NCBI GenBank assembly: GCA_051532055.1
Contig: JAOPTX010000100.1
Span: 1 to 14,368, forward strand
Direction: 5' to 3'
DNA length: 14,368 nt
From: Fibrobacterales bacterium
GTDB taxonomy: Bacteria > Fibrobacterota > Fibrobacteria > Fibrobacterales > JAOPTW01
Program-made: the position numbers and the translations under genes
The notes under the pieces: generated by a model
What the model was told of the DNA's origin: nothing
What the model saw: only the letters and a program-made list of their open reading frames with translations
Databases searched by the model: none
In this document: in pieces, positions 1 through 14,202 of the stretch
Layout of the letters: every line of letters begins with the position of its first letter
Numbering within the stretch: the first letter of the stretch is position 1

Positions 1-150
1 TGGACATAGGAATGGGCAGAGTATCTGTTTGGGAGACTGCATAGTTATGCAGGGAAGAAAATATTTTTGTAGAAGCCCCACCGTCCATGGTGGGGCTAGT
101 TTACTATATTCTATCTAGTCATACGTTAGCATAAACAATTATTGGGTACA

Positions 151-597
151 ATGACAAAAATAATTATTGGCATCTTTGGATTAAGTATTGTTATAGGGTT
201 TTTAATTCTACATAACTTTGATTTTTTGCTTAAAACAAATCAACTTCAAGTTATAGAGAATGGGCATGAACTGAACATAGAAGCATATCAAAGAGGAAAG
301 GACCAAATATTAATATTTTTGTACCCGACCAATGTCTTATCAAATATACTGTTAATCGATCACTCATCTAATATTATTTATAGCGTCAATCCGCCAAGAG
401 AATTTCTAGGAATCAAATTTTATAATTCGGACACGAAGTATCCAGGAATTAAAATAGATGATGGTGTAAAAATGGAAGGATGGGAATATAAATTCAAAAA
501 TAACGTATATAAAATAAAAAGTTTAGATTCCACTTTAAATGTACATGGTACCGCCAAAATCCCAATGAAAGAATATCGCCTCGAAATAAGGCTATAA
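151..597 (+). CDS. Hypothetical protein with N-terminal membrane anchor/signal
   Basis: ORF 142..597; ATG at 151 preferred over TTG 142; hydrophobic stretch IIIGIFGLSIVIGFLIL; no recognised domain. Confidence 0.7.
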   Translation: MTKIIIGIFGLSIVIGFLILHNFDFLLKTNQLQVIENGHELNIEAYQRGKDQILIFLYPTNVLSNILLIDHSSNIIYSVNPPREFLGIKFYNSDTKYPGIKIDDGVKMEGWEYKFKNNVYKIKSLDSTLNVHGTAKIPMKEYRLEIRL

Positions 598-703
598 AGC
601 ATACCAATAAATCAAATGGGTAAGTTCACGACCATTATCCAAGTGATAACAGAAAAGTTAAACATCTATTAAAAAACCTGTTTATAAGTAGGAATCTGGA
701 TGG

Positions 704-778
704 ATATAACGAAACGTTGGAGCGGTAATTGAAAAGAGTTATATTGTGGAATAAATTCCGCTCAACTAAAAGTTATTA
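704..778 (+). repeat. Classical-architecture attC site
   Basis: R'' ATATAAC(704-710), 5-nt spacer, GTTG[G]AGCGG[T]AATT(716-730) pairing with AATTCCGCTCAAC(754-766) with two unpaired bases, 5-nt spacer, R' GTTATTA(772-778). Confidence 0.65.
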
Positions 779-826
779 TGGAAGGCTTTGATATATTGAT
801 CCATTACCGTGACACAGAATAACTAT

Positions 827-1591
827 ATGAAAAATATTATAACCTTATTCTCCGTGATTATTTTACAAGCGTTTGTAGGATGTTCAGCGAGTAAGCCTTT
901 GAAGGAGACTAATGAGTATCATTTCACAGGTGATGTTAAGGATCTATTAGATACAACAGTAGCATATAAAACTAAAACGATTGAACCTATATACATTGAC
1001 GGTAAGTCACATACTTTTATATCACCTGAATTTCCTGATTATCAAAAAATAATGGGAAAAAAGATGAATAACCCTCGGCAGTTATTGTTGTCAAATTTGG
1101 ATTGCTGGTCAAAAGTATCGAGTGATGCCTCCTGTAGAACTGAGGTACTATTTTCAGATTCCTCAAAACAGATATTACAGATAATTAAACAAAAAAGCTT
1201 CCTGGGTTGGTTGCAGCCTGACGAAACTAAGCGAAAACCCAAGAGGATATTTGTTTTTAAAGAACCAGATCATAAATTATTCCATTCATTACCCTTCAAT
1301 GATGAGGCGCTTGTTACATATTTTAGAATGCGTTCTGATATTAAATCCATAACAACATTTAAAGAAGAGCCCCCCTCAATGGCCTCGATTGTTGTGGTGG
1401 GTATTATGGTTGCAACTCCTGCTTTTCTTGCTTCTATGGTCATAGAGTCAGTAGTGTATGCAATAGATAAAAATTATTCATGGAAACGAGTTGGGATATA
1501 CACTGGTAGTATGGTAGGTGGGGTAATGGGGCTCGGGCTCGTATTATGGACCGGTGAAATCTCAGTCAAAATTGTGAAAGTAGATTTCTAA
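827..1591 (+). CDS. Hypothetical lipoprotein with two C-terminal TM helices
   Basis: MKNIITLFSVIILQAFVG-C lipobox-like N-terminus from ATG 827 (ORF track starts at GTG 809); two hydrophobic segments near the C-terminus. Confidence 0.75.
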   Translation: MKNIITLFSVIILQAFVGCSASKPLKETNEYHFTGDVKDLLDTTVAYKTKTIEPIYIDGKSHTFISPEFPDYQKIMGKKMNNPRQLLLSNLDCWSKVSSDASCRTEVLFSDSSKQILQIIKQKSFLGWLQPDETKRKPKRIFVFKEPDHKLFHSLPFNDEALVTYFRMRSDIKSITTFKEEPPSMASIVVVGIMVATPAFLASMVIESVVYAIDKNYSWKRVGIYTGSMVGGVMGLGLVLWTGEISVKIVKVDF

Positions 1592-1689
1592 TAATATCTC
1601 CGCCGTCCCTGGCGGCGTTCGCTAAAAAAAAACATTTTCTTTTCTCCCAAATGGACATCATGCAAGGCATGCCCATTCCTACGATCCAC

Positions 1690-1755
1690 CAACAACAAAA
1701 GCACAAAACCTTTTTCCTAAATATGAAAAAGGCTTCGTACATTTTGTGAACGTTG
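1690..1755 (+). repeat. attC-like core site 1
   Basis: CAAC-aacaaaa-GCAC..CCTTTTTC-ctaaatat-GAAAAAGG..GTAC..CGTTG. Confidence 0.8.
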
Positions 1756-4212: not shown

Positions 4213-4285
4213 CAACAGCCGAAGCACGCAAGCTTTTTTCTATGCACTGAAGTGCAAAAAGCCTGCGTACATTCGCCAAGCGTTG
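4213..4285 (+). repeat. attC-like core site 3
   Basis: Near-identical to site 2. Confidence 0.85.
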
Positions 4286-4538
4286 TAGAACATTATGCAA
4301 GACATCACATCATACTATGTAAATAGATAGAGAAGTAATACCCGGCTCATGAATTAAATATTACCGGCCACGAAAGCGGCAATCGTCCTAATTGCCACAG
4401 GTAAATTATTTTTAAAATAAAGAAGTATTTGAGAATTATGATTTATAGTAGTTGTAAATTCTTTGTAAATAAAAGAGGCTGCAATGATTCTACTTTGCTA
4501 AAAAATTACATTTGTCCTTTATTAAAATGAAGGTTTAC

Positions 4539-6245
4539 ATGAAGATAAAACTCTTAATTATACTAGTACTAGCCTTACTTTCATTTGCTTTTTCAGAGAC
4601 AAGAACTGTTCTTTGTTTTAAAGACAATATCAGTACTCAGGATAATGTTTGTAATAATAATGATTCACTACTAAGTGCCGTTGCAAAATCAGGTAATTAC
4701 GATTACGTAATAATAGGTAATGGTGTATGGAAAGACCTTGCAATAAATATCAACACATATTACTTGAGGTTTTTGGCTGAGGAAACAGGTAAAGTTTTTT
4801 TTACTGGTCAATCAAGTATTATTGTTAATGCAAAAAAAGTTGAAATAAGAGGTATTACCTTTAAAGATGGAGGATTGCCTCCTGGTAGTGAGTCTATAAT
4901 AAAGCTTTCTGGTGGGAGCAATGAATCAACTATAGAAGATTGTGTGATTTCATACTATAACCCAGAAGATCCTATGACAGAGTATGATTGGATCCACATT
5001 GGTAAAGGTAATAATAACAAAATCAGAAACAATATTTTTGAAGGTAAAAATCACAAAGGAACTCTTATAGAAGTAAGACATAGATTGTGCCTACAGTCTT
5101 CAGAAGCTTGTAATATACCAGTATTTATTAAAGAAGGTATAGTTGATAATCAATTATATGAGAATACAACAATGTATTATCCTAGTAATACGGGGAATAA
5201 TATTATTGAAAAAAATACTTTTATAGATTGTATTAAAGGAAATGATAATAGCAATGGATATGAAATAATTCGTATTGGTTTAGATGTTGAGCAACAAATA
5301 ATATCAAACAATATTGTTAGAATGAATTTATTTGAAAATATTTTAATGGAAGATGAAATAATTTCTAGCAAATCTACTGGCAATAAATATCTCAATAATG
5401 TTTTCAAAAATTGTAGAGGTGGTTTGTCCCTAAGACATGGGAATGATAATGTTGTAATGGGAAATGTGTTCATGCGAGGAAATGAATTTAATGATAATAT
5501 GTCTGGACTATTTATAATGGGGGAAGGACATATCGTAGTAAATAATTATTTTCAGGGGCTCAATGGCAATGCAATTCAGATAAGGTATGGAGATAAAGAT
5601 GTCTATTCCAATTCGTCTAATGGTTTTGCATTTGTAAAAGATTTAATTTTAAGTTTTAATACTTTTGTTGATTGTAGCAGGTACTTTTATTTTTATCAGC
5701 ATGAAAAACAATTATTATCTCCCACGGAAGCGAACATATCTCACAATATCTTTCAAACAGGTACAGAATTACAAGATTTGTTTTTAGTAACTAATACGGG
5801 AGATTGGAACTCACCAGAACAAAAGTATGATAGAACATCATCTAAGGATATAAATGAAATTCCTGATGTTTTTTGGAATAAGAATATATGGGCATCGACA
5901 TATCAAGAAAATGAACTGATGGTTAATAACTATATAGGCAGTGTTTTATATCTCTCCAAAGATGATCTCTATAAACCTAAACATGAATTAAGTAATTTGT
6001 TACTTGAAATAGATTTGCCTGAAAACCTAAAGTCAATTATGAAAAATGATTTATATGGGGGATTGCGTTCTAATGAATTGATGACAATTGGAGCTATTGA
6101 AGTTATGGAAACGACACAACATGACCCCAATTATACTTTGGATGAATTGATGTCTTTACCTTTGCTTTTTAGGCCAAATTCAAGAATGCTAAATAGTTCG
6201 ATGAATACAAATTACTTAATGCCAATAATTTCAATACTAAAATAA
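4539..6245 (+). CDS. Secreted polysaccharide lyase family 6 (chondroitinase B / alginate lyase-like beta-helix)
   Basis: PL6 motifs NGYEIIRIG, EDEIISSKS (catalytic Lys position), GGLSLRHG (catalytic Arg position), GHIVVNNYF; signal peptide from ATG 4539 with GAAGG upstream; substrate not determinable. Confidence 0.85.
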   Translation: MKIKLLIILVLALLSFAFSETRTVLCFKDNISTQDNVCNNNDSLLSAVAKSGNYDYVIIGNGVWKDLAININTYYLRFLAEETGKVFFTGQSSIIVNAKKVEIRGITFKDGGLPPGSESIIKLSGGSNESTIEDCVISYYNPEDPMTEYDWIHIGKGNNNKIRNNIFEGKNHKGTLIEVRHRLCLQSSEACNIPVFIKEGIVDNQLYENTTMYYPSNTGNNIIEKNTFIDCIKGNDNSNGYEIIRIGLDVEQQIISNNIVRMNLFENILMEDEIISSKSTGNKYLNNVFKNCRGGLSLRHGNDNVVMGNVFMRGNEFNDNMSGLFIMGEGHIVVNNYFQGLNGNAIQIRYGDKDVYSNSSNGFAFVKDLILSFNTFVDCSRYFYFYQHEKQLLSPTEANISHNIFQTGTELQDLFLVTNTGDWNSPEQKYDRTSSKDINEIPDVFWNKNIWASTYQENELMVNNYIGSVLYLSKDDLYKPKHELSNLLLEIDLPENLKSIMKNDLYGGLRSNELMTIGAIEVMETTQHDPNYTLDELMSLPLLFRPNSRMLNSSMNTNYLMPIISILK

Positions 6246-6598: not shown

Positions 6599-6863
6599 TT
6601 ATCTCTATTCTTACCGAAAGATTAAGGACTTCACAATAATATTATTATATAAATAGGGCAGTTTCTAAGAGCAAGTCTCGGTGCGAACCACAATACGGTT
6701 TTCTATTAAGATGTTGTCTTTGGAATAACCCTAATTTAAGTTTTGTTTCATGATTCTATCAACTTCCGCTATCCTGCTACAGTTGATGTGGCCGGAAAGA
6801 GTTTAAAGCCGGGCGCTATAAAAGTACTGCATTGGTAGGGAAAAGTCTTGCATAACGATTCTA

Positions 6864-7042
6864 CAACAGGGTGAGCAGGCAATTACCGTGTCGTAAGTGA
6901 ACTGCATTCGATCGGTCGCTAAAGCTCCTCGCTCTCATGCAACCCAAGCAGAGCTTGGGAGTTCACTAACTCCACTTTTTTATCCAAAATCGTAAAGACC
7001 GATTTTGGATAAAAATAACTGCCTACTGGCACCCAAACGTTG
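6864..7042 (+). repeat. attC-like core site 4 (long, multibranched)
   Basis: CAAC-agggtga-GCAGGCAATTA...TAACTGCCTAC..CGTTG enclosing several internal hairpins. Confidence 0.8.
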
Positions 7043-7126
7043 TTTAAAATATTCGATTGTTAAAAAGAATAGAAAAAAGCTAAATTTAAAGAAATATTCA
7101 ATAATATCAGTTTTATTTAAAATCTG

Positions 7127-7184: not shown

Positions 7185-9986
7185 ATGAAAATAATAATTA
7201 TGGCCTTTCTATTGTTAACAATGCCATTGTTTTGGGGATGTGATTTATTTAAATCCAGTAAATCAACTGAAAACCTACCACCTGAGCTTACCATTTATTC
7301 AGATACAACATTAAGTGTAAATGATAGCATCAACCTTTCAGTACAGCTTACTGATGAGGATTCTGCCAGCGTGGAATATATTTGGCAAATTGACGAACTA
7401 AACATGCTTGATACATTATTTGAAAATAATATTTTAGTTGCATTTCCAAAAACTGGAACATATGATGTTATTATCACGGCAATTGATAATAAGGGCAGCC
7501 TTTCAGATCCCGATACATTGAAGGTAACCATTTTTTCATCAATGCCCTCTGTTCAAATTTCAACTACACCAGCTCGTCACCCTGTAAATGACACTCTTAA
7601 ATTTACTGTTACAGCCACCGATACAGACGGTAAAGTCATCGATTATTTGTGGTCTTTTGATAATAATCAATTTAATGTGACAAAAGAACCAATGTTTAAA
7701 GCAATATGGAGCTCAGAAGAGTTTGGTAGTAAAACTCTATATGTAAAAGTCATTGATGATGATAGCTTAACATCACTTGTTGATTCTATATCGTTTGAAA
7801 TCGCCAAATTGCAACCACAGTTAAATCTATCAGCAGACACTTCAATTTTTGTTAATGATTCAATTTCATTTAATGCTAATGCTATCGATTCTAATGGAAC
7901 GGTGGTTAAACACCTTTGGTCTTTTGATAATATAACATGGGATACTACATCAATGGCATCTTTAACCAAAGCATGGCCTATTAATGATTATGGGATTAAA
8001 ATACTATATGCTAAAGTAATAGATGATGACGGCATCGAGTCATCAGTTGATTCTACTAGAATTGAAGTTCTTTTATCAGCGCCAATAGTCAAATCAATGA
8101 GTGATACTTCAATTTTCGTAAATGACTCTATAAACCTTAATGTATCTGCTACAGATGTAAATGGGACAATATTTAAATACCTTTGGTCATTTGACAACGT
8201 AACATGGGATACTACATCAAATGCAACGTTGACCAAAGCATGGGTCATTAACGACTATGGCAATAAAACAATGTATGTAAAAGTGATTGATGATGATGGT
8301 GTTGGATCCACTATAGACTCTACCAAAATAAATGTTACTCTTTCTGCACCTGTTCTTATAGCAATGAATGATACTATAGTGGCAGTAAATGATTCGATAC
8401 TATTTACTGCGTTAGCAACAGATAACAATGGTAATATTATAAATTATTTATGGTCTTTGGATAGTGGCAAATCGTATGCATCCACAATGGAAGGAGCATA
8501 CAAATATATTTGGCCAATTAATGAATATGGTTCAAAATTAATTTTGGTTAAGGCTATGGATGATGATAATGTAGAATCTAATGTTGATACTATTGTTGTC
8601 ACAGTTAATCAATGCCTTCCCGAAGTACAGGCAATAAATTTACAAGGTCAAATCAGCGATACAATAATAAGCATAAATGATTCAATATATATTGGTATAT
8701 CGGCAACAGACTCGAATGGCCAAATATCCAAATATTACTGGGATTTCAATGCAGATGGCTGGGATGATAGTACAAGTAATACTGGTTCGTTAAGTCGTTA
8801 TTTAAAATGGCCTGCTGGTGGAAATGTAAAAGTAGTTGTAGGCGCTTTGGATGATGATGGATTAATTGGTTTAGATACATTTAATGTTTTGTTTAATAGA
8901 CCACCAACATCATGTGACTTGAATACCAATTTTAATCCTGACAAAGGTGGCTGGAGTAATTTTAATTATACTTCGGATAATGGTAGCATTCAAGTTTCTT
9001 TTACAGGTGTTGATCCTGATGGGGGTTTTGATGTCCTGAGTTATGATTTTTATTGGGGACTTGATTCAAATGGTATGACTCAAAAATCTATTGGAATGAA
9101 TGGCACTGTTTCCATCACAGATATAGAAGTTCAAACTACTTATTATTGGAAAGTTATTGCTAGAGATTTGTATGGAGATAGCACTGTGCAGACTGGTTTA
9201 TTTAGTCCCATTGATTACCCACTAGATGGAATATTTTGGAACAATACAACTGGAACGCCAAACTTTACTAGTAACTTTGATGGTCAGGTTACTACTTTTT
9301 CTCATGATGGCCAAATGTGGTTAATTGCAGCTAAGACTTACAATAACACCTCAAATATGATTTATAACTCTGCTGATGGTATCAATTGGGTCAAAGTTAC
9401 CGGAACACCAAACTTTACTAGTAACTTTGATGGTCAAGTTACAGCTTTTTCTCATGATGGCCAAATGTGGTTAGTTGCAGCTAAGACTTACAGTAACACA
9501 TCGAATATGATTTTTAAATCTGCTGATGGTATCAATTGGGTCAAAGTTACCGGAACACCAAACTTTACTAGTAACTTTGATGGTCAAGTTACAGCTTTTT
9601 CTCATGATGGCCAAATGTGGTTAGTTGCAGCTGAGACTTACAGTAACACATCGAATATGATTTTTAAATCTACTGATGGCATCAATTGGGTTAAAGTTAC
9701 CGGAACACCAAACTTTGCTAGTAATTTTGATGGTCAAGTTACAGCTTTTTCTCATGATGGCCAAATGTGGTTAGTTGCAGCTGAGACTTACAATAACACA
9801 TCGAATATGATTTATAAATCTACTAATGGTATCAATTGGGTTAAAGTTACTGGAACACCAAACTTCACTAGTAACTTTGATGGTCAAGTTGCAGCTTTTT
9901 CTCATGATGGCCAAATGTGGTTAGTTGCAGCTAAGACTTATAGCAATACATCGAATACTATCCACAAATCCGGAAGAAATAATTAA
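7185..9986 (+). CDS. Large lipoprotein: about 6 PKD/Ig-like domains, an FN3-like domain and a C-terminal repeat beta-propeller
   Basis: Lipobox FWG-C; repeated NDSI..A.D.NG....Y.WSFD..KVIDDDG units of about 89 aa; YYWKVIARD; five 50-aa repeats with Asp-box-like SxDGINW. Confidence 0.85.
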   Translation: MKIIIMAFLLLTMPLFWGCDLFKSSKSTENLPPELTIYSDTTLSVNDSINLSVQLTDEDSASVEYIWQIDELNMLDTLFENNILVAFPKTGTYDVIITAIDNKGSLSDPDTLKVTIFSSMPSVQISTTPARHPVNDTLKFTVTATDTDGKVIDYLWSFDNNQFNVTKEPMFKAIWSSEEFGSKTLYVKVIDDDSLTSLVDSISFEIAKLQPQLNLSADTSIFVNDSISFNANAIDSNGTVVKHLWSFDNITWDTTSMASLTKAWPINDYGIKILYAKVIDDDGIESSVDSTRIEVLLSAPIVKSMSDTSIFVNDSINLNVSATDVNGTIFKYLWSFDNVTWDTTSNATLTKAWVINDYGNKTMYVKVIDDDGVGSTIDSTKINVTLSAPVLIAMNDTIVAVNDSILFTALATDNNGNIINYLWSLDSGKSYASTMEGAYKYIWPINEYGSKLILVKAMDDDNVESNVDTIVVTVNQCLPEVQAINLQGQISDTIISINDSIYIGISATDSNGQISKYYWDFNADGWDDSTSNTGSLSRYLKWPAGGNVKVVVGALDDDGLIGLDTFNVLFNRPPTSCDLNTNFNPDKGGWSNFNYTSDNGSIQVSFTGVDPDGGFDVLSYDFYWGLDSNGMTQKSIGMNGTVSITDIEVQTTYYWKVIARDLYGDSTVQTGLFSPIDYPLDGIFWNNTTGTPNFTSNFDGQVTTFSHDGQMWLIAAKTYNNTSNMIYNSADGINWVKVTGTPNFTSNFDGQVTAFSHDGQMWLVAAKTYSNTSNMIFKSADGINWVKVTGTPNFTSNFDGQVTAFSHDGQMWLVAAETYSNTSNMIFKSTDGINWVKVTGTPNFASNFDGQVTAFSHDGQMWLVAAETYNNTSNMIYKSTNGINWVKVTGTPNFTSNFDGQVAAFSHDGQMWLVAAKTYSNTSNTIHKSGRNN
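9249..9972 (+). repeat. Intragenic tandem repeat, 150 bp x about 5
   Basis: AACTT..CTAGTAA.TTTGATGGTCA recurs at 9261, 9411, 9561, 9711, 9861. Confidence 0.95.
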
Positions 9987-10043
9987 TACTATGATGTTTT
10001 ATTAAATTAATTAAAGCCTATTTTAACAATCGAATACTTCAAA

Positions 10044-10110
10044 CAACACGAAAAGGCAGCAATAAATTTCCGTAAATATGAAATTCACAGCTGCCGTTTT
10101 CGGAACGTTG
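10044..10110 (+). repeat. attC-like core site 5
   Basis: CAAC-aCGAAAA-GGCAGC...GCTGCC-g-TTTTCG-gaa-CGTTG; same subfamily as site 8. Confidence 0.85.
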
Positions 10111-10398
10111 TAAGACATTGGCACACAATCTAGAGGGGCCGTGTGGGCTAAAATTTAAAAAATTATAATCACAGCTCTGGCAGTTCGTTGCATTTTTTAA
10201 AGCCCACCTGACAAGTAGACTGAATCACTGGGCTTTCATATTACATGACATTGCTTTCCTTTTAATTTGAAAGCAATACTCGCTTTGCTCGTGTCATGCA
10301 ATATTCAGCCCTTTAAGTAGCTCACCCTCCCTGAATGTGTAGTTTAGTCAGGTGTAGTGGCTATTTGCCCCTCTAGCTTTGCACCAACGTCTTACAAC
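10107..10398. other. ORF-less, highly structured cassette (candidate ncRNA or ssDNA fold-back)
   Basis: 292 bp between sites 5 and 6, no ORF of 60 aa or more, nested inverted repeats throughout. Confidence 0.75.
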
Positions 10399-10457
10399 AA
10401 CCGTAGCACGCAATAGTTTCTTTTAATATGAAACTACTGCGTACTCCGGCCACGTTG
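10395..10457 (+). repeat. attC-like core site 6
   Basis: CAAC-aaccgta-GCACGCAATAGTTTC-ttttaatat-GAAACTACTGCGTAC..CGTTG. Confidence 0.85.
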
Positions 10458-10558
10458 CAAGACATGTTTTCGGTTTGTGGAGGATTACTAATGTGGCCCT
10501 CAATTATTTTTGTGATATTTCTACCTTTTAATGGTATTAATTCAGTCGGCTAGTTTTA

Positions 10559-12201: not shown

Positions 12202-14202
12202 ATGAAAAGTATAAAAAAATCATTGATGGCAAAAATTCTTGTGCTGGCATTAGCATCTGGAGCTGTTCCTATTGTTGTTATCGTTGTGTTTTCGATAGTC
12301 AATATAACTGATAGCATGTTACATCAGATTGGTGAAAATTTGCGTGACAACGCAGAGATGGTTGGAAGTAATATTGATGATTTTTTTGATCAGCGAGAGA
12401 ATGATGCGCGGGTAATATCTCAAGCAAATGTACTCGAGTCTGCCGATGCAATTGTTCAACAAGGTTATTTTGACGATATTATAGATGCAAACCCTAACAT
12501 TACCGGTATTAATGTGATTAGTTCTGATGGGGTAGTATTTTCAAGTAATGGTGACCAGAATAAGGTAGGGGCAACCCTCAAATCATTTAAGCCTGACCTT
12601 GTGCCACTGTATAAGGATGCGCTATCTGCTAAGCAGGGAGATGTTCTTTTTGGAAAAGTACATATTGAACAATCAACTCTTTCGATGTATATGATTACCC
12701 CAGTTACCGATGATTCAAATATCAATGTAATTTCGGTAATTGTAATTGCAATTAATATGCAGCCAATTATTGAAAGTATTGCGCTCTTTAATGAAAATGT
12801 AATTGGTGATGAGTTTGTGTATTTGCTTAATGATGATGGAGAAGTTATTGTAACGGGTGACTCTGAACAAAAGTTATTTACAACGTTTAATGATTTAACC
12901 CACAAGCCAGATGTGCTTGATGCGACAGATGAGGATGGCTCAAAGGATTTCTTGATATATGAAAATTTTAGAGACATTGAGGTTATTGCAGGAATGGCTG
13001 ACATGAGAGCACATGGAGTTAATAATGGTCTCGATTGGGGAATTGTTGCAGTAGCTGAAACAAGTGCTATTGCGCAGCCAGCCTATACATTAAGAAATTA
13101 TCTGCTGCTCATTGCTATTATAGTCCTTGGTATAATAGCAATCATTGCAGTTATAATATCAAGAGCAATAATTGCACCGTTAAATAATGTAAACAAAGGG
13201 TTGCAAGATATTGCTGAAGGCGAAGGGGACCTTACGAAAAGATTAAAGTCTACAACAAACGATGAAATTGGTGAACTTACAGACTGGTTTAACCAAGTGA
13301 TGGAAAAAATTAGAGTAATCATTAAGCAAAACAAAGATAGTGTTAATTCTATAAAAGACTCGTCATCAAATCAAAATGAGGCCGTAACCTCTGTTTCAAA
13401 TGCAACTAATTCCATGACAGAGAAGTCACGAAAAATTGCCCATGATTCTGATTCAGCTACAACTAATATTAATGATATTTCTGAGAATACTGCTCACCTT
13501 AATGCAAATATTTCTACTGTAGCATCGGCAGTAGAGGAGATGAGTACTACGACGAATGAAATAGCACAAAACTGCCAACAAGAGCTTAAAATTGCGGGAG
13601 ATGCGAGTAAAATGGCTCAAGATGCAAATAAAACAATGGAAACAATGAAGCTTTCCGCCGATAAAATAGGTAAAGTTCTCGATACCATAAAAGATATTGC
13701 AGACCAGACGAATCTTTTGGCGCTGAATGCTACAATTGAGGCAGCATCAGCAGGGGATGCTGGAAAAGGTTTTGCTGTGGTAGCAAGTGAGGTTAAAGAG
13801 CTTGCTAAACAGACATCTCAGGCAGTTGATGATATTGCCTCTCAGGTTGCTACTATGCATACAAGTACTAATGATTCTGTAAAGTCAATTGAATCCGTAT
13901 CAACAATTATTGAAGAGGTTAATGTGATTTCTCAGACAATTGTAAGTGCTATTGAAGAACAATCAGCGACGATTAATGAAATTGCCGGAAACATTTCTAA
14001 CCTAAATCAAACAAGTAGTAATGTTGCCGATAATATTAGTGAGTCAGCAAATTATATCGCAAGTATTAATAAAGATGTATCTGCATTTAGCCAGGAGGTT
14101 GATGCAATAACTGATAATATGAGTGAGATAAAAAACAACTCAGATGATCTTACAAGTATTTCAAATGAGTTACATGCCTCTGTCGGTAAATTTATCGTTT
14201 GA
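12202..14202 (+). CDS. Methyl-accepting chemotaxis protein (TM, Cache-like sensor, TM, HAMP, MCP signalling domain)
   Basis: [37 protein letters not shown] hairpin tip; [24 protein letters not shown]; two TM helices. Confidence 0.95.

What the first reader, a model, noticed from the sequence alone, without database searches (positions are those of the whole stretch)
10107..10398. ORF-less cassette that is almost entirely nested stems
Seen: terminal arms of about 33 bp; GTGGGCT..TTAAAAAAT/ATTTTTTAA-AGCCCAC branch (10143-10207); CACCTGAC(10205-10212)/GTCAGGTG(10347-10354); GGGCT(10230-10234)/AGCCC(10307-10311); ATATTACATGACA(10238-10250)/TGTCATGCAATAT(10292-10304); ATTGCTTTC(10250-10258)/GAAAGCAAT(10269-10277). 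It looks more GC-rich than the genes. Inference: either a structured ncRNA cassette or an empty vector (arms without cargo) that might be the precursor into which genes are captured, which bears on the open question of cassette genesis.
Basis: partly seen in the sequence, partly recalled or inferred. Interest (0 to 1): 0.75.

Follow-up and report, generated by a model that had tools for sequence, protein, structure and literature searches.

The report
Duplicated, fully folding gene-less cassette
This 347-base unit in a bacterial gene-capture array encodes no protein, occurs twice in the genome, and is predicted to fold on one strand into a closed branched shape, so it likely spreads as a self-folding passenger of the array rather than being an empty template for new cassettes.

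Summary
The observation largely holds. 10107-10398 is the body of a gene-less cassette between two attC-like sites. A second copy, with the same attC and different neighbours, differs at 4 of 351 bases. The bottom strand folds far better than shuffles (z -10.6 as RNA, -6.3 without arms). One listed stem (10205/10347) is an alternative, not nested.

The arms are not special: 19 of 28 other cassettes have them. No gene-bearing cassette shares this element's arms or interior, so 'empty vector' is weakly supported at best. It does share one short GGA tag with gene-bearing cassettes, and those reuse folded flanks around unrelated genes. No Rfam match, no homologue outside this genome and no transcript data, so RNA versus DNA is open.

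Best reading: a recombinase-mobilised passenger whose folded single strand favours its own excision and reinsertion (0.42). Rival: antisense structured RNA (0.28). Gene-less, paralogous cassettes are known (PMC1382264). Earlier scan notes report folded gene-less cassettes in other genomes, and the long arms in this one.

The parts
10041..10113 (+). Upstream attC-like site (belongs to the preceding cassette); R'' ends at AAC 10045-47, R' begins at GTT 10107
   Evidence: bottom strand predicted as a hairpin
10108..10454 (+). The mobile unit: 347-bp gene-less cassette from one inferred G|TT crossover to the next
   Evidence: identity with the second copy (G000:C89:8028-8380) runs 10105-10457, 98.9%; neighbours differ
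10107..10139 (-). Left terminal arm; mismatches at 10117, 10122 and 10123 are G.T pairs on the bottom strand
10367..10398 (-). Right terminal arm, ending in the R'' box of the cassette's own attC
10143..10207 (-). Branch A: two stacked helices (7 and 9 bp) closing a 28-nt loop
   Evidence: pair probability > 0.5 on both strands, RNA and DNA parameters
10164..10169 (+). Perfect TATAAT hexamer in both copies, without a -35 match (candidate -10 box only)
   Evidence: not called as a promoter
10230..10311 (-). Branch B: 5-bp plus 12-13-bp stems, inner 9-bp hairpin (10250-10277) and an asymmetric side loop
10280..10290 (+). TCGC-N3-GCTC side-loop motif, also in long attC sites of the arrays, always on the same strand
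   Evidence: 12 on the top strand, 0 on the other, in 62,456 bp of arrays
10318..10363 (-). Branch C: three short helices closing a 13-nt loop
10326..10333 (-). CAGGGAGG, the right-end GGA tag found at a similar distance from the end in 10 gene-bearing cassettes; partly base-paired in the predicted fold
10205..10212 (.). 5' half of an alternative 8-bp stem with 10347-10354; excludes parts of branches A and C
10392..10460 (+). The cassette's own attC-like site; 10399-10457 identical in the second copy

Best explanation
It is a gene-less cassette of an integron-like array, present twice in the genome, whose bottom strand is predicted to fold into a closed branched structure and which likely spreads as a non-coding passenger because that fold would favour its own excision and reinsertion. 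Shown: it is bounded by attC-like sites, moved as a unit with its own attC, encodes no protein, and shares terminal arms and two short strand-locked motifs with other parts of the array. Inferred: when the bottom strand is single-stranded, the arms pair and bring the two recombination sites together across only 292 nt. The excised 347-nt circle would then fold with no free ends and with its attC stem extended by about 30 bp, making it a good substrate for reinsertion. The recombinase is probably the Xer-like integrase on C46 (inferred from adjacency). A side role as promoter or RNA is not excluded.
For: Second copy identical up to the GTT crossovers with different neighbours; both junction contexts appear in contigs of run X1. 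Only duplicated cassette of 34 examined. Circle fold, DNA parameters: bottom strand -76.8 kcal/mol and 71% paired, top strand -61.0; the circular attC junction folds at -45.6 against -25.9 in the integrated form; in array context the arms pair and form a multi-way junction with both attC stems. Arms fit the bottom strand array-wide: 42 bottom-strand G.T against 4 top-strand, with position 11 in 21 of 21 armed cassettes. The side-loop motif is shared with attC terminal loops, which act as DNA. Bottom-strand, single-stranded attC recombination and easier excision of short cassettes are published for IntI1 systems (PMC5371416, passages). Non-coding Vibrio cassettes are often paralogous and were proposed to be selfish or regulatory (PMC1382264, passages).
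Against: Gene-bearing cassettes move without a folded interior, so the fold is not needed for mobility. With DNA parameters the interior barely prefers the bottom strand (z -4.0 against -3.5), while with RNA parameters it does (-6.3 against -2.0), which fits the RNA rival better. Interior G.U counts do not favour one strand (2 bottom, 3 top at p > 0.5). Two copies is a small number, and assembly can hide duplicates of longer cassettes. Of the 4 differences between copies, 2 keep the bottom-strand pair and 2 break a helix-end pair, which shows no selection either way. No recombination was tested, and the nearest recombinase is not a canonical IntI.
Confidence: 0.42

Rival explanations
1. The interior is the gene for a roughly 230-290-nt structured RNA made from the bottom strand (antisense to the array), possibly bound by CsrA at its one GGA site, which an alternative fold would unmask.
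For: Interior RNA- z -6.3, in the top 3 of 99 sampled non-coding stretches' range. The bottom strand is far better defined as RNA (85 pairs at p > 0.9, ensemble diversity 14.7, against 65 and 34.4). Unpaired bases are A-rich, 46 of 96. CAGGGAGG fits ANGGA and 7 of 8 positions of the SELEX consensus CANGGAYG (10.1101/2020.08.24.265819, passages). The genome has csrA. The alternative stem, 4.9 kcal/mol above the RNA- minimum, takes the strand that pairs with the GGA site. An integron-borne sRNA precedent exists (sRNA-Xcc1, as cited in PMC6557892).
Against: No promoter or terminator called inside the cassette on either strand. No Rfam match. No homologue, so no covariation. Only 2 GGA on the bottom strand and none on top, and the tag is partly paired rather than in an apical loop. 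The same tag lies on the bottom strand of gene-bearing cassettes whatever the gene direction.
Confidence: 0.28
2. It is a promoter cassette that drives downstream cassettes, and the folding is a by-product of palindromic protein-binding or chassis sequence.
For: Most tested gene-less Vibrio cassettes have sense-strand promoter activity (10.1101/2023.11.21.568050, abstract and passages). A perfect TATAAT with an A/T tract upstream is on the top strand of both copies. 80-82 predicted pairs are shared by both strands, as plain palindromes would give.
Against: No -35 match and no promoter call. One TATAAT in 292 A+T-rich bases is near chance (my estimate). In the second copy the next cassette's gene runs the opposite way. 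Promoter function does not explain three folded branches.
Confidence: 0.15
3. It is an empty chassis, either a precursor into which genes are captured or a cassette that lost its gene.
For: Cassette families in this genome share about 120-nt left and 100-nt right flanks at 73-93% identity while their proteins show no BLASTP similarity. Some joined flanks fold as densely as the element. The element carries the right-end tag: best profile site at 10322, reached by 19 of 2000 shuffles (47 of 2000 without the most similar site; 0 of 2000 with one family only).
Against: With the other three families only, 281 of 2000 shuffles reach the score, and the motif was spotted by eye first. The left tag is missing, whereas 10 of 10 gene-bearing cassettes with a right tag also have a left one. 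None of 128 flank comparisons gives a convincing same-orientation match. No filled sibling with these arms in this genome or by exact pattern in GTDB genomes and JGI metagenomes.
Confidence: 0.1
4. It is a decayed gene or a transposon-derived miniature element caught in a cassette.
For: Nearly perfect Watson-Crick stems (3 G.U of 69 interior pairs) resemble recently made inverted repeats.
Against: 3-8 stops in every frame and no TBLASTN hit elsewhere in the genome at E <= 1. No copy outside the arrays. No similarity to the ends of the attC-targeting IS110 element.
Confidence: 0.05

Closest known systems
Paralogous non-coding cassettes of Vibrio chromosomal integrons (Boucher et al. 2006, PMC1382264; passages read)
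   Same: No ORF over 150 bp, own attC, repeated in the array, no homologue found outside the lineage; selfish versus regulatory left open there too.
   Different: Here the body is predicted to fold almost throughout and carries 33-bp terminal arms; the term 'secondary structure' does not occur in that paper's main text. The array's sites and nearest recombinase are non-canonical.
Promoter-carrying gene-less cassettes (Blanco et al., 10.1101/2023.11.21.568050; Tansirichaiya et al. 2019, PMC6557892; abstract/passages read)
   Same: Gene-less cassette inside an array.
   Different: Smaller (347 bp against 491-666 bp in the Vibrio set); no promoter activity shown; 'inverted repeat' occurs in neither main text.
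Classical attC sites recombined as folded bottom strands (Bouvier et al. 2009, PMC2727003; Loot et al. 2017, PMC5371416; passages read)
   Same: AAC...GTT core, bottom-strand hairpin, cassette ends complementary.
   Different: End complementarity is 9-11 nt in most classical cassettes but about 20-33 bp here; the predicted fold of the own site has no single bulged base in L''; the adjacent recombinase scores below the IntI cut-off.
sRNA-Xcc1 of Xanthomonas integrons (Chen et al. 2011; paper not held, seen only as cited in PMC6557892, PMC8876359 and 10.1101/2025.06.18.660453)
   Same: Non-coding element on a cassette; sRNA-Xcc1 is transcribed opposite to the array, as a bottom-strand RNA would be here.
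   Different: No Rfam match here and no transcript; the most widespread Xanthomonas cassette also carries symE.
TD-1 and TD-2 motifs of Treponema denticola (Weinberg et al. 2007, PMC1950547; passages read)
   Same: Lineage-restricted multi-hairpin motifs of uncertain RNA status.
   Different: They have 28-36 copies with covariation; no Rfam match to this element; that paper does not mention integrons.

Membership tests
Canonical integron cassette (IntI/attC) | Bounded by sites with inverted AAC/GTT core boxes that fold as bottom-strand hairpins | tested here: met
   (folds are predictions)
Canonical integron cassette (IntI/attC) | Moves as a unit with its own 3' site, identity ending at the G|TT crossover | tested here: met
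   second copy identical over 10105-10457 with other neighbours
Canonical integron cassette (IntI/attC) | Extrahelical base in the L'' box of the folded site | tested here: not met
   predicted fold of the own site shows a 1x1 mismatch and a 2-nt bulge next to R', no single bulge in L''; filed therefore as integron-like
Canonical integron cassette (IntI/attC) | Cognate IntI-type integrase | tested here: inconclusive
   C46 recombinase, adjacent to this site type in G000 and G001, scores 183.6 against the TIGR02249 cut-off of 265 and matches the model in two pieces, 4-180 and 238-306; a true IntI on C108 lies beside a different site type
Canonical integron cassette (IntI/attC) | Integrase-dependent excision and insertion | not testable with these tools
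   needs a recombination assay
Non-coding (gene-less) cassette as defined by Boucher 2006 | No ORF longer than 150 bp | tested here: met
   longest start-to-stop frame 21-26 codons
Non-coding (gene-less) cassette as defined by Boucher 2006 | No translated match to known proteins | tested here: inconclusive
   six frames against the own genome only, no hit at E <= 1; no public BLASTX run
Promoter cassette | Promoter activity on adjacent cassettes | not testable with these tools
   only a lone TATAAT; no promoter call inside the cassette
Known structured RNA family (Rfam 15) | Match at gathering score | tested here: not met
   0 matches; at E <= 10 only weak hits, the best being miRNA models on the attC hairpin
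Structured non-coding RNA gene (new family) | Covariation among homologues | tested here: inconclusive
   only two copies, 4 differences: 2 keep a pair, 2 break a helix-end pair
Structured non-coding RNA gene (new family) | Discrete transcript | not testable with these tools
   no suitable RNA data served
CsrB/RsmZ-type sponge RNA | Multiple GGA motifs displayed in hairpin loops | tested here: not met
   2 GGA on the bottom strand, both partly paired; none on top
MITE or IS remnant | Dispersed copies and ends shared with an autonomous element | tested here: not met
   both copies lie in cassette arrays; no match to the IS110 ends
Retron msr-msd, DRT ncRNA or IS110 guide RNA | Linked to, or similar to the RNA of, a reverse transcriptase or transposase locus | tested here: not met
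   RT genes lie on C39 and C57; alignment scores to their flanking non-coding regions and to the IS110 non-coding end equal shuffles

The most novel reading that the evidence does not exclude
The element is the minimal self-propagating unit of a second, non-IntI gene-capture system: a 347-nt single-stranded circle that folds with no free ends, is built from the same strand-locked parts (long arms, fixed G.T at position 11, GGA tag, side-loop motif) as the reusable folded chassis that carry unrelated genes in this array, and can donate such a chassis for new cassettes, with a two-state fold that masks or frees its CsrA-type site.
Probability: 0.12. Interest if true: 0.8.

Novelty: new variant of a known kind. 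Interest (0 to 1): 0.45.

Why it matters
How integron cassettes arise is described as largely unknown (PMC5371416, passage), and whether non-coding cassettes are selfish or useful has been open since PMC1382264. This 347-bp unit is small enough to synthesise, so it is a clean substrate for asking whether a folded interior raises cassette mobility, makes an RNA or drives transcription. The stronger lead for cassette genesis is beside it: families of cassettes in the same arrays share folded flanks around unrelated genes. The element itself has no homologues yet, which limits what can be claimed.

Tried and rejected
Homologue searches, all negative: BLASTN in 0 of 60 relatives and 0 of 295 other genomes of the phylum (many incomplete); a covariance model of 10226-10366 built from the two copies in 0 of 4 close genomes and 0 of 150 sampled; both-arm pattern in viral contigs, 0; right-arm-plus-attC pattern in GTDB, 2 hits that do not resemble the element beyond the pattern, and in JGI metagenomes, 0; attC-type pattern in metagenomes, 16 loci, none holding the element and nearly all not attC-like; plasmids, one 38-nt hit at E 0.3; phages, none. 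Exact patterns miss diverged relatives. G001 yielded only about five such sites and no gene-less cassette.

Sequencing runs: no RNA holder listed; the small same-sample RNA run laid no contig; neither is evidence on expression. No back-joint (circle) in X1 contigs, which contigs may not show. Contig depth was 768 over the element against 439-476 on flanks, but the tool says this is no copy number.

No tRNA or tmRNA. Retron, DRT3/DRT1 RNA and IS110 guide RNA ideas rejected. Mini-hairpin DNA idea: the element's motif reads GCAAAGC on the bottom strand, one base off the GCGNAGC rule of PMC13037366 (passages), so not met. A 20-nt and an 18-nt exact match of the branch A loop to two genes (C14, C59): 20 nt was not reached in 300 shuffles, 18 nt or more in 18 of 300; the two lie in opposite orientations relative to their mRNAs, so I did not use them. 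A second alternative stem (10199-206 with 10229-36) costs 3.1-6.5 kcal/mol, chance level.

Rows dropped: 2 of 29 attC candidates as likely false; 9 half-sites added by hand; 4 of 34 cassettes at contig starts left out of the arm count; some of the 9 armless intervals may be mis-delimited. Literature searches listed no paper describing fully folded gene-less cassettes or 20-33-bp cassette arms, but the library lacks most subscription journals and I read passages only, no supplements.

Full report
Setting. The window is contig C100 of a 5.17-Mb, 39.6% GC assembly. It is probably a Fibrobacterota genome: one window protein has a Fib_succ_major domain and earlier scan notes say so; no call names the taxon. 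The window is a cassette array: long ORFs on the + strand are separated by repeats that begin with CAAC and end with GTTG and fold as bottom-strand hairpins. I delimited 34 inter-site intervals across the assembly. Contig-end overlaps allow C89 to run into C100 or C45 and C100 into C83, so both copies of the element may lie in one large array.

The observation. The listed complements are present at the given coordinates. The element folds far better than dinucleotide shuffles on both strands, best on the bottom strand (RNA -119.9 kcal/mol, z -10.6). Without the arms the interior keeps z -6.3 (RNA-), -2.0 (RNA+), -4.0 (DNA-), -3.5 (DNA+); 3 of 99 sampled non-coding stretches reach z <= -6. The predicted bottom-strand structure is a 29-pair terminal stem closing a multiloop with three well-defined branches. 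There is no ORF over 26 codons and no Rfam match.

It is a mobile unit. A second copy at G000:C89:8028-8380 matches 10105-10457 at 98.9%, from one GTT to the next, with different cassettes on both sides. The four differences are all in the body; the attC part is identical. Contigs of DNA run X1, which may be the source sample, show both contexts. It is the only cassette of 34 with a second full copy.

The arms are general. 21 of 30 cassettes scored (19 of 28 without the element's two copies) have self-complementary ends of about 20-33 bp, against 49 of 870 non-cognate pairings, many within families. Their mismatches read as G.T on the bottom strand 42 times and on the top strand 4 times, with position 11 in 21 of 21. 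Classical cassettes extend only to 9-11 nt (PMC2727003, passage). So the arms say nothing special about this cassette. In the circular form they would lengthen the attC stem: -45.6 against -25.9 kcal/mol for equal-length segments. I measured this before reading the earlier notes that report the same.

What else it shares. (a) A TCGC-N3/4-GCTC motif occurs 12 times on the top strand and never on the other in 62,456 bp of arrays, where about 0.8 per strand is expected; 7 are one family of long attC sites, 2 are the element, 2 are C108 sites, 1 is a flank. (b) Of 32 other cassettes, 10 carry a GGA tag 55-115 nt inside both ends on the bottom strand, 2 only on the left, 20 none; the top-strand control has no pair (pattern written after seeing the sites, and the 10 fall in about four families). 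The element has the right tag only. A profile from the other cassettes finds it as the best site, with 19, 47, 281 and 0 of 2000 shuffles reaching the score depending on the training set. The tag fits the CsrA/Rsm consensus (10.1101/2020.08.24.265819, passages) and csrA is present, but in the element it is partly paired. Earlier notes report such paired tags in spirochaete arrays.

The vector question. Gene-bearing cassettes fall into families that share about 120 nt on the left and 100 nt on the right while their proteins show no BLASTP match at E <= 0.001, and some joined flanks fold as densely as the element. That supports reusable chassis in this system. The element is not an empty member of these families: its interior gives no convincing match in 128 comparisons, it lacks the left tag, and no gene-bearing cassette with its arms turned up here or by exact pattern elsewhere.

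The recombinase. A 364-aa tyrosine recombinase on C46 lies head to head with this type of array and its counterpart does so in G001. It passes NF040815 (230 against 220 bits) but not the IntI model TIGR02249 (184 against 265). A true IntI on C108 sits beside TAAC/GTTA-type sites. Which enzyme moves the element is not shown, so I file it as integron-like.

How it most likely works. Shown: boundaries, mobility as a unit, no coding capacity, strong predicted fold, shared strand-locked parts. Inferred: the fold acts on the single-stranded bottom strand, as attC sites do (PMC5371416, passages). In the array context the arms pair and form a junction with both attC stems, and the excised circle would be 71% paired with no free ends. 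A short, pre-folded cassette would excise and reinsert easily, which would explain the duplication without a benefit to the host (0.42). Against this, the interior's strand preference appears mainly with RNA parameters, so an antisense RNA is a close rival (0.28); promoter cassette 0.15; empty chassis 0.10; decayed gene or MITE 0.05. The four copy differences do not decide it: two keep the bottom-strand pair, two break a helix-end pair.

Comparison and novelty. Gene-less, paralogous, lineage-restricted cassettes are known (PMC1382264, passages), as are promoter cassettes and one cassette-borne sRNA (seen only in citing papers). My eight literature searches listed no description of a fully folded one with long arms, within a library that lacks most subscription journals. 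Earlier scan notes describe several folded gene-less cassette families in other genomes (not checked here); none resembles this sequence by word search. It is a new variant of a known kind, without homologues or expression data. Interest 0.45.

Noticed in passing
G000:C122:88-1850; contig ends of C45, C46, C72, C141, C153 and starts of C33, C89, C136: An element with a ~430-aa transposase that looks IS110-family by its motifs (my recall; no family scan run) and a ~380-nt non-coding end is inserted at the R' box of several attC-like sites and breaks the assembly.
   Followed up: partly
window 1-1693, internal site about 705-780: The first cassette holds two genes separated by a TAAC/GTTA-type attC-like site, the type found beside the C108 IntI; five other cassettes of the same flank family show a similar internal site or its start. 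Cassettes of one system appear nested inside the chassis of the other.
   Followed up: partly
window 1-117, 1591-1693, 4282-4400, 6770-6867 and G000 C45, C72, C89, C136, C141, C153: Families of folded left and right flanks, often with two-part arms and paired bottom-strand GGA hairpins, surround unrelated genes; one family's right flank is conserved in G001. This bears more directly on cassette genesis than the gene-less cassette does.
   Followed up: partly
G000:C46:14354-15448 (-) and G001:C3:16997-17776 (-): Xer-like recombinase below the IntI cut-off sits next to the CAAC/GTTG arrays in both genomes.
   Followed up: partly
window 6861-7045: A 185-bp attC-like site with a multi-hairpin terminal loop; related long sites on C33, C45, C47, C72, C89, C141.
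   Followed up: no
window 7185-9986 and 12202-14202: Unusually large cargo: a 933-aa PKD-repeat protein with 150-bp tandem repeats and a 666-aa methyl-accepting chemotaxis protein; also a chondroitinase-B-like protein at 4512-6245.
   Followed up: no
G000:C39:1827-4977 and C57:9129-12008: Two adjacent reverse transcriptase genes with a folded downstream non-coding region containing an AC repeat (DRT3-like by recall), and a long RT gene on C57.
   Followed up: no
window 10177-10201 against G000:C14:36543-36562 and C59:545-562: The branch A loop region has exact 20-nt and 18-nt matches in two host genes; the 20-nt match exceeded all 300 shuffles. Unexplained, possibly chance.
   Followed up: partly
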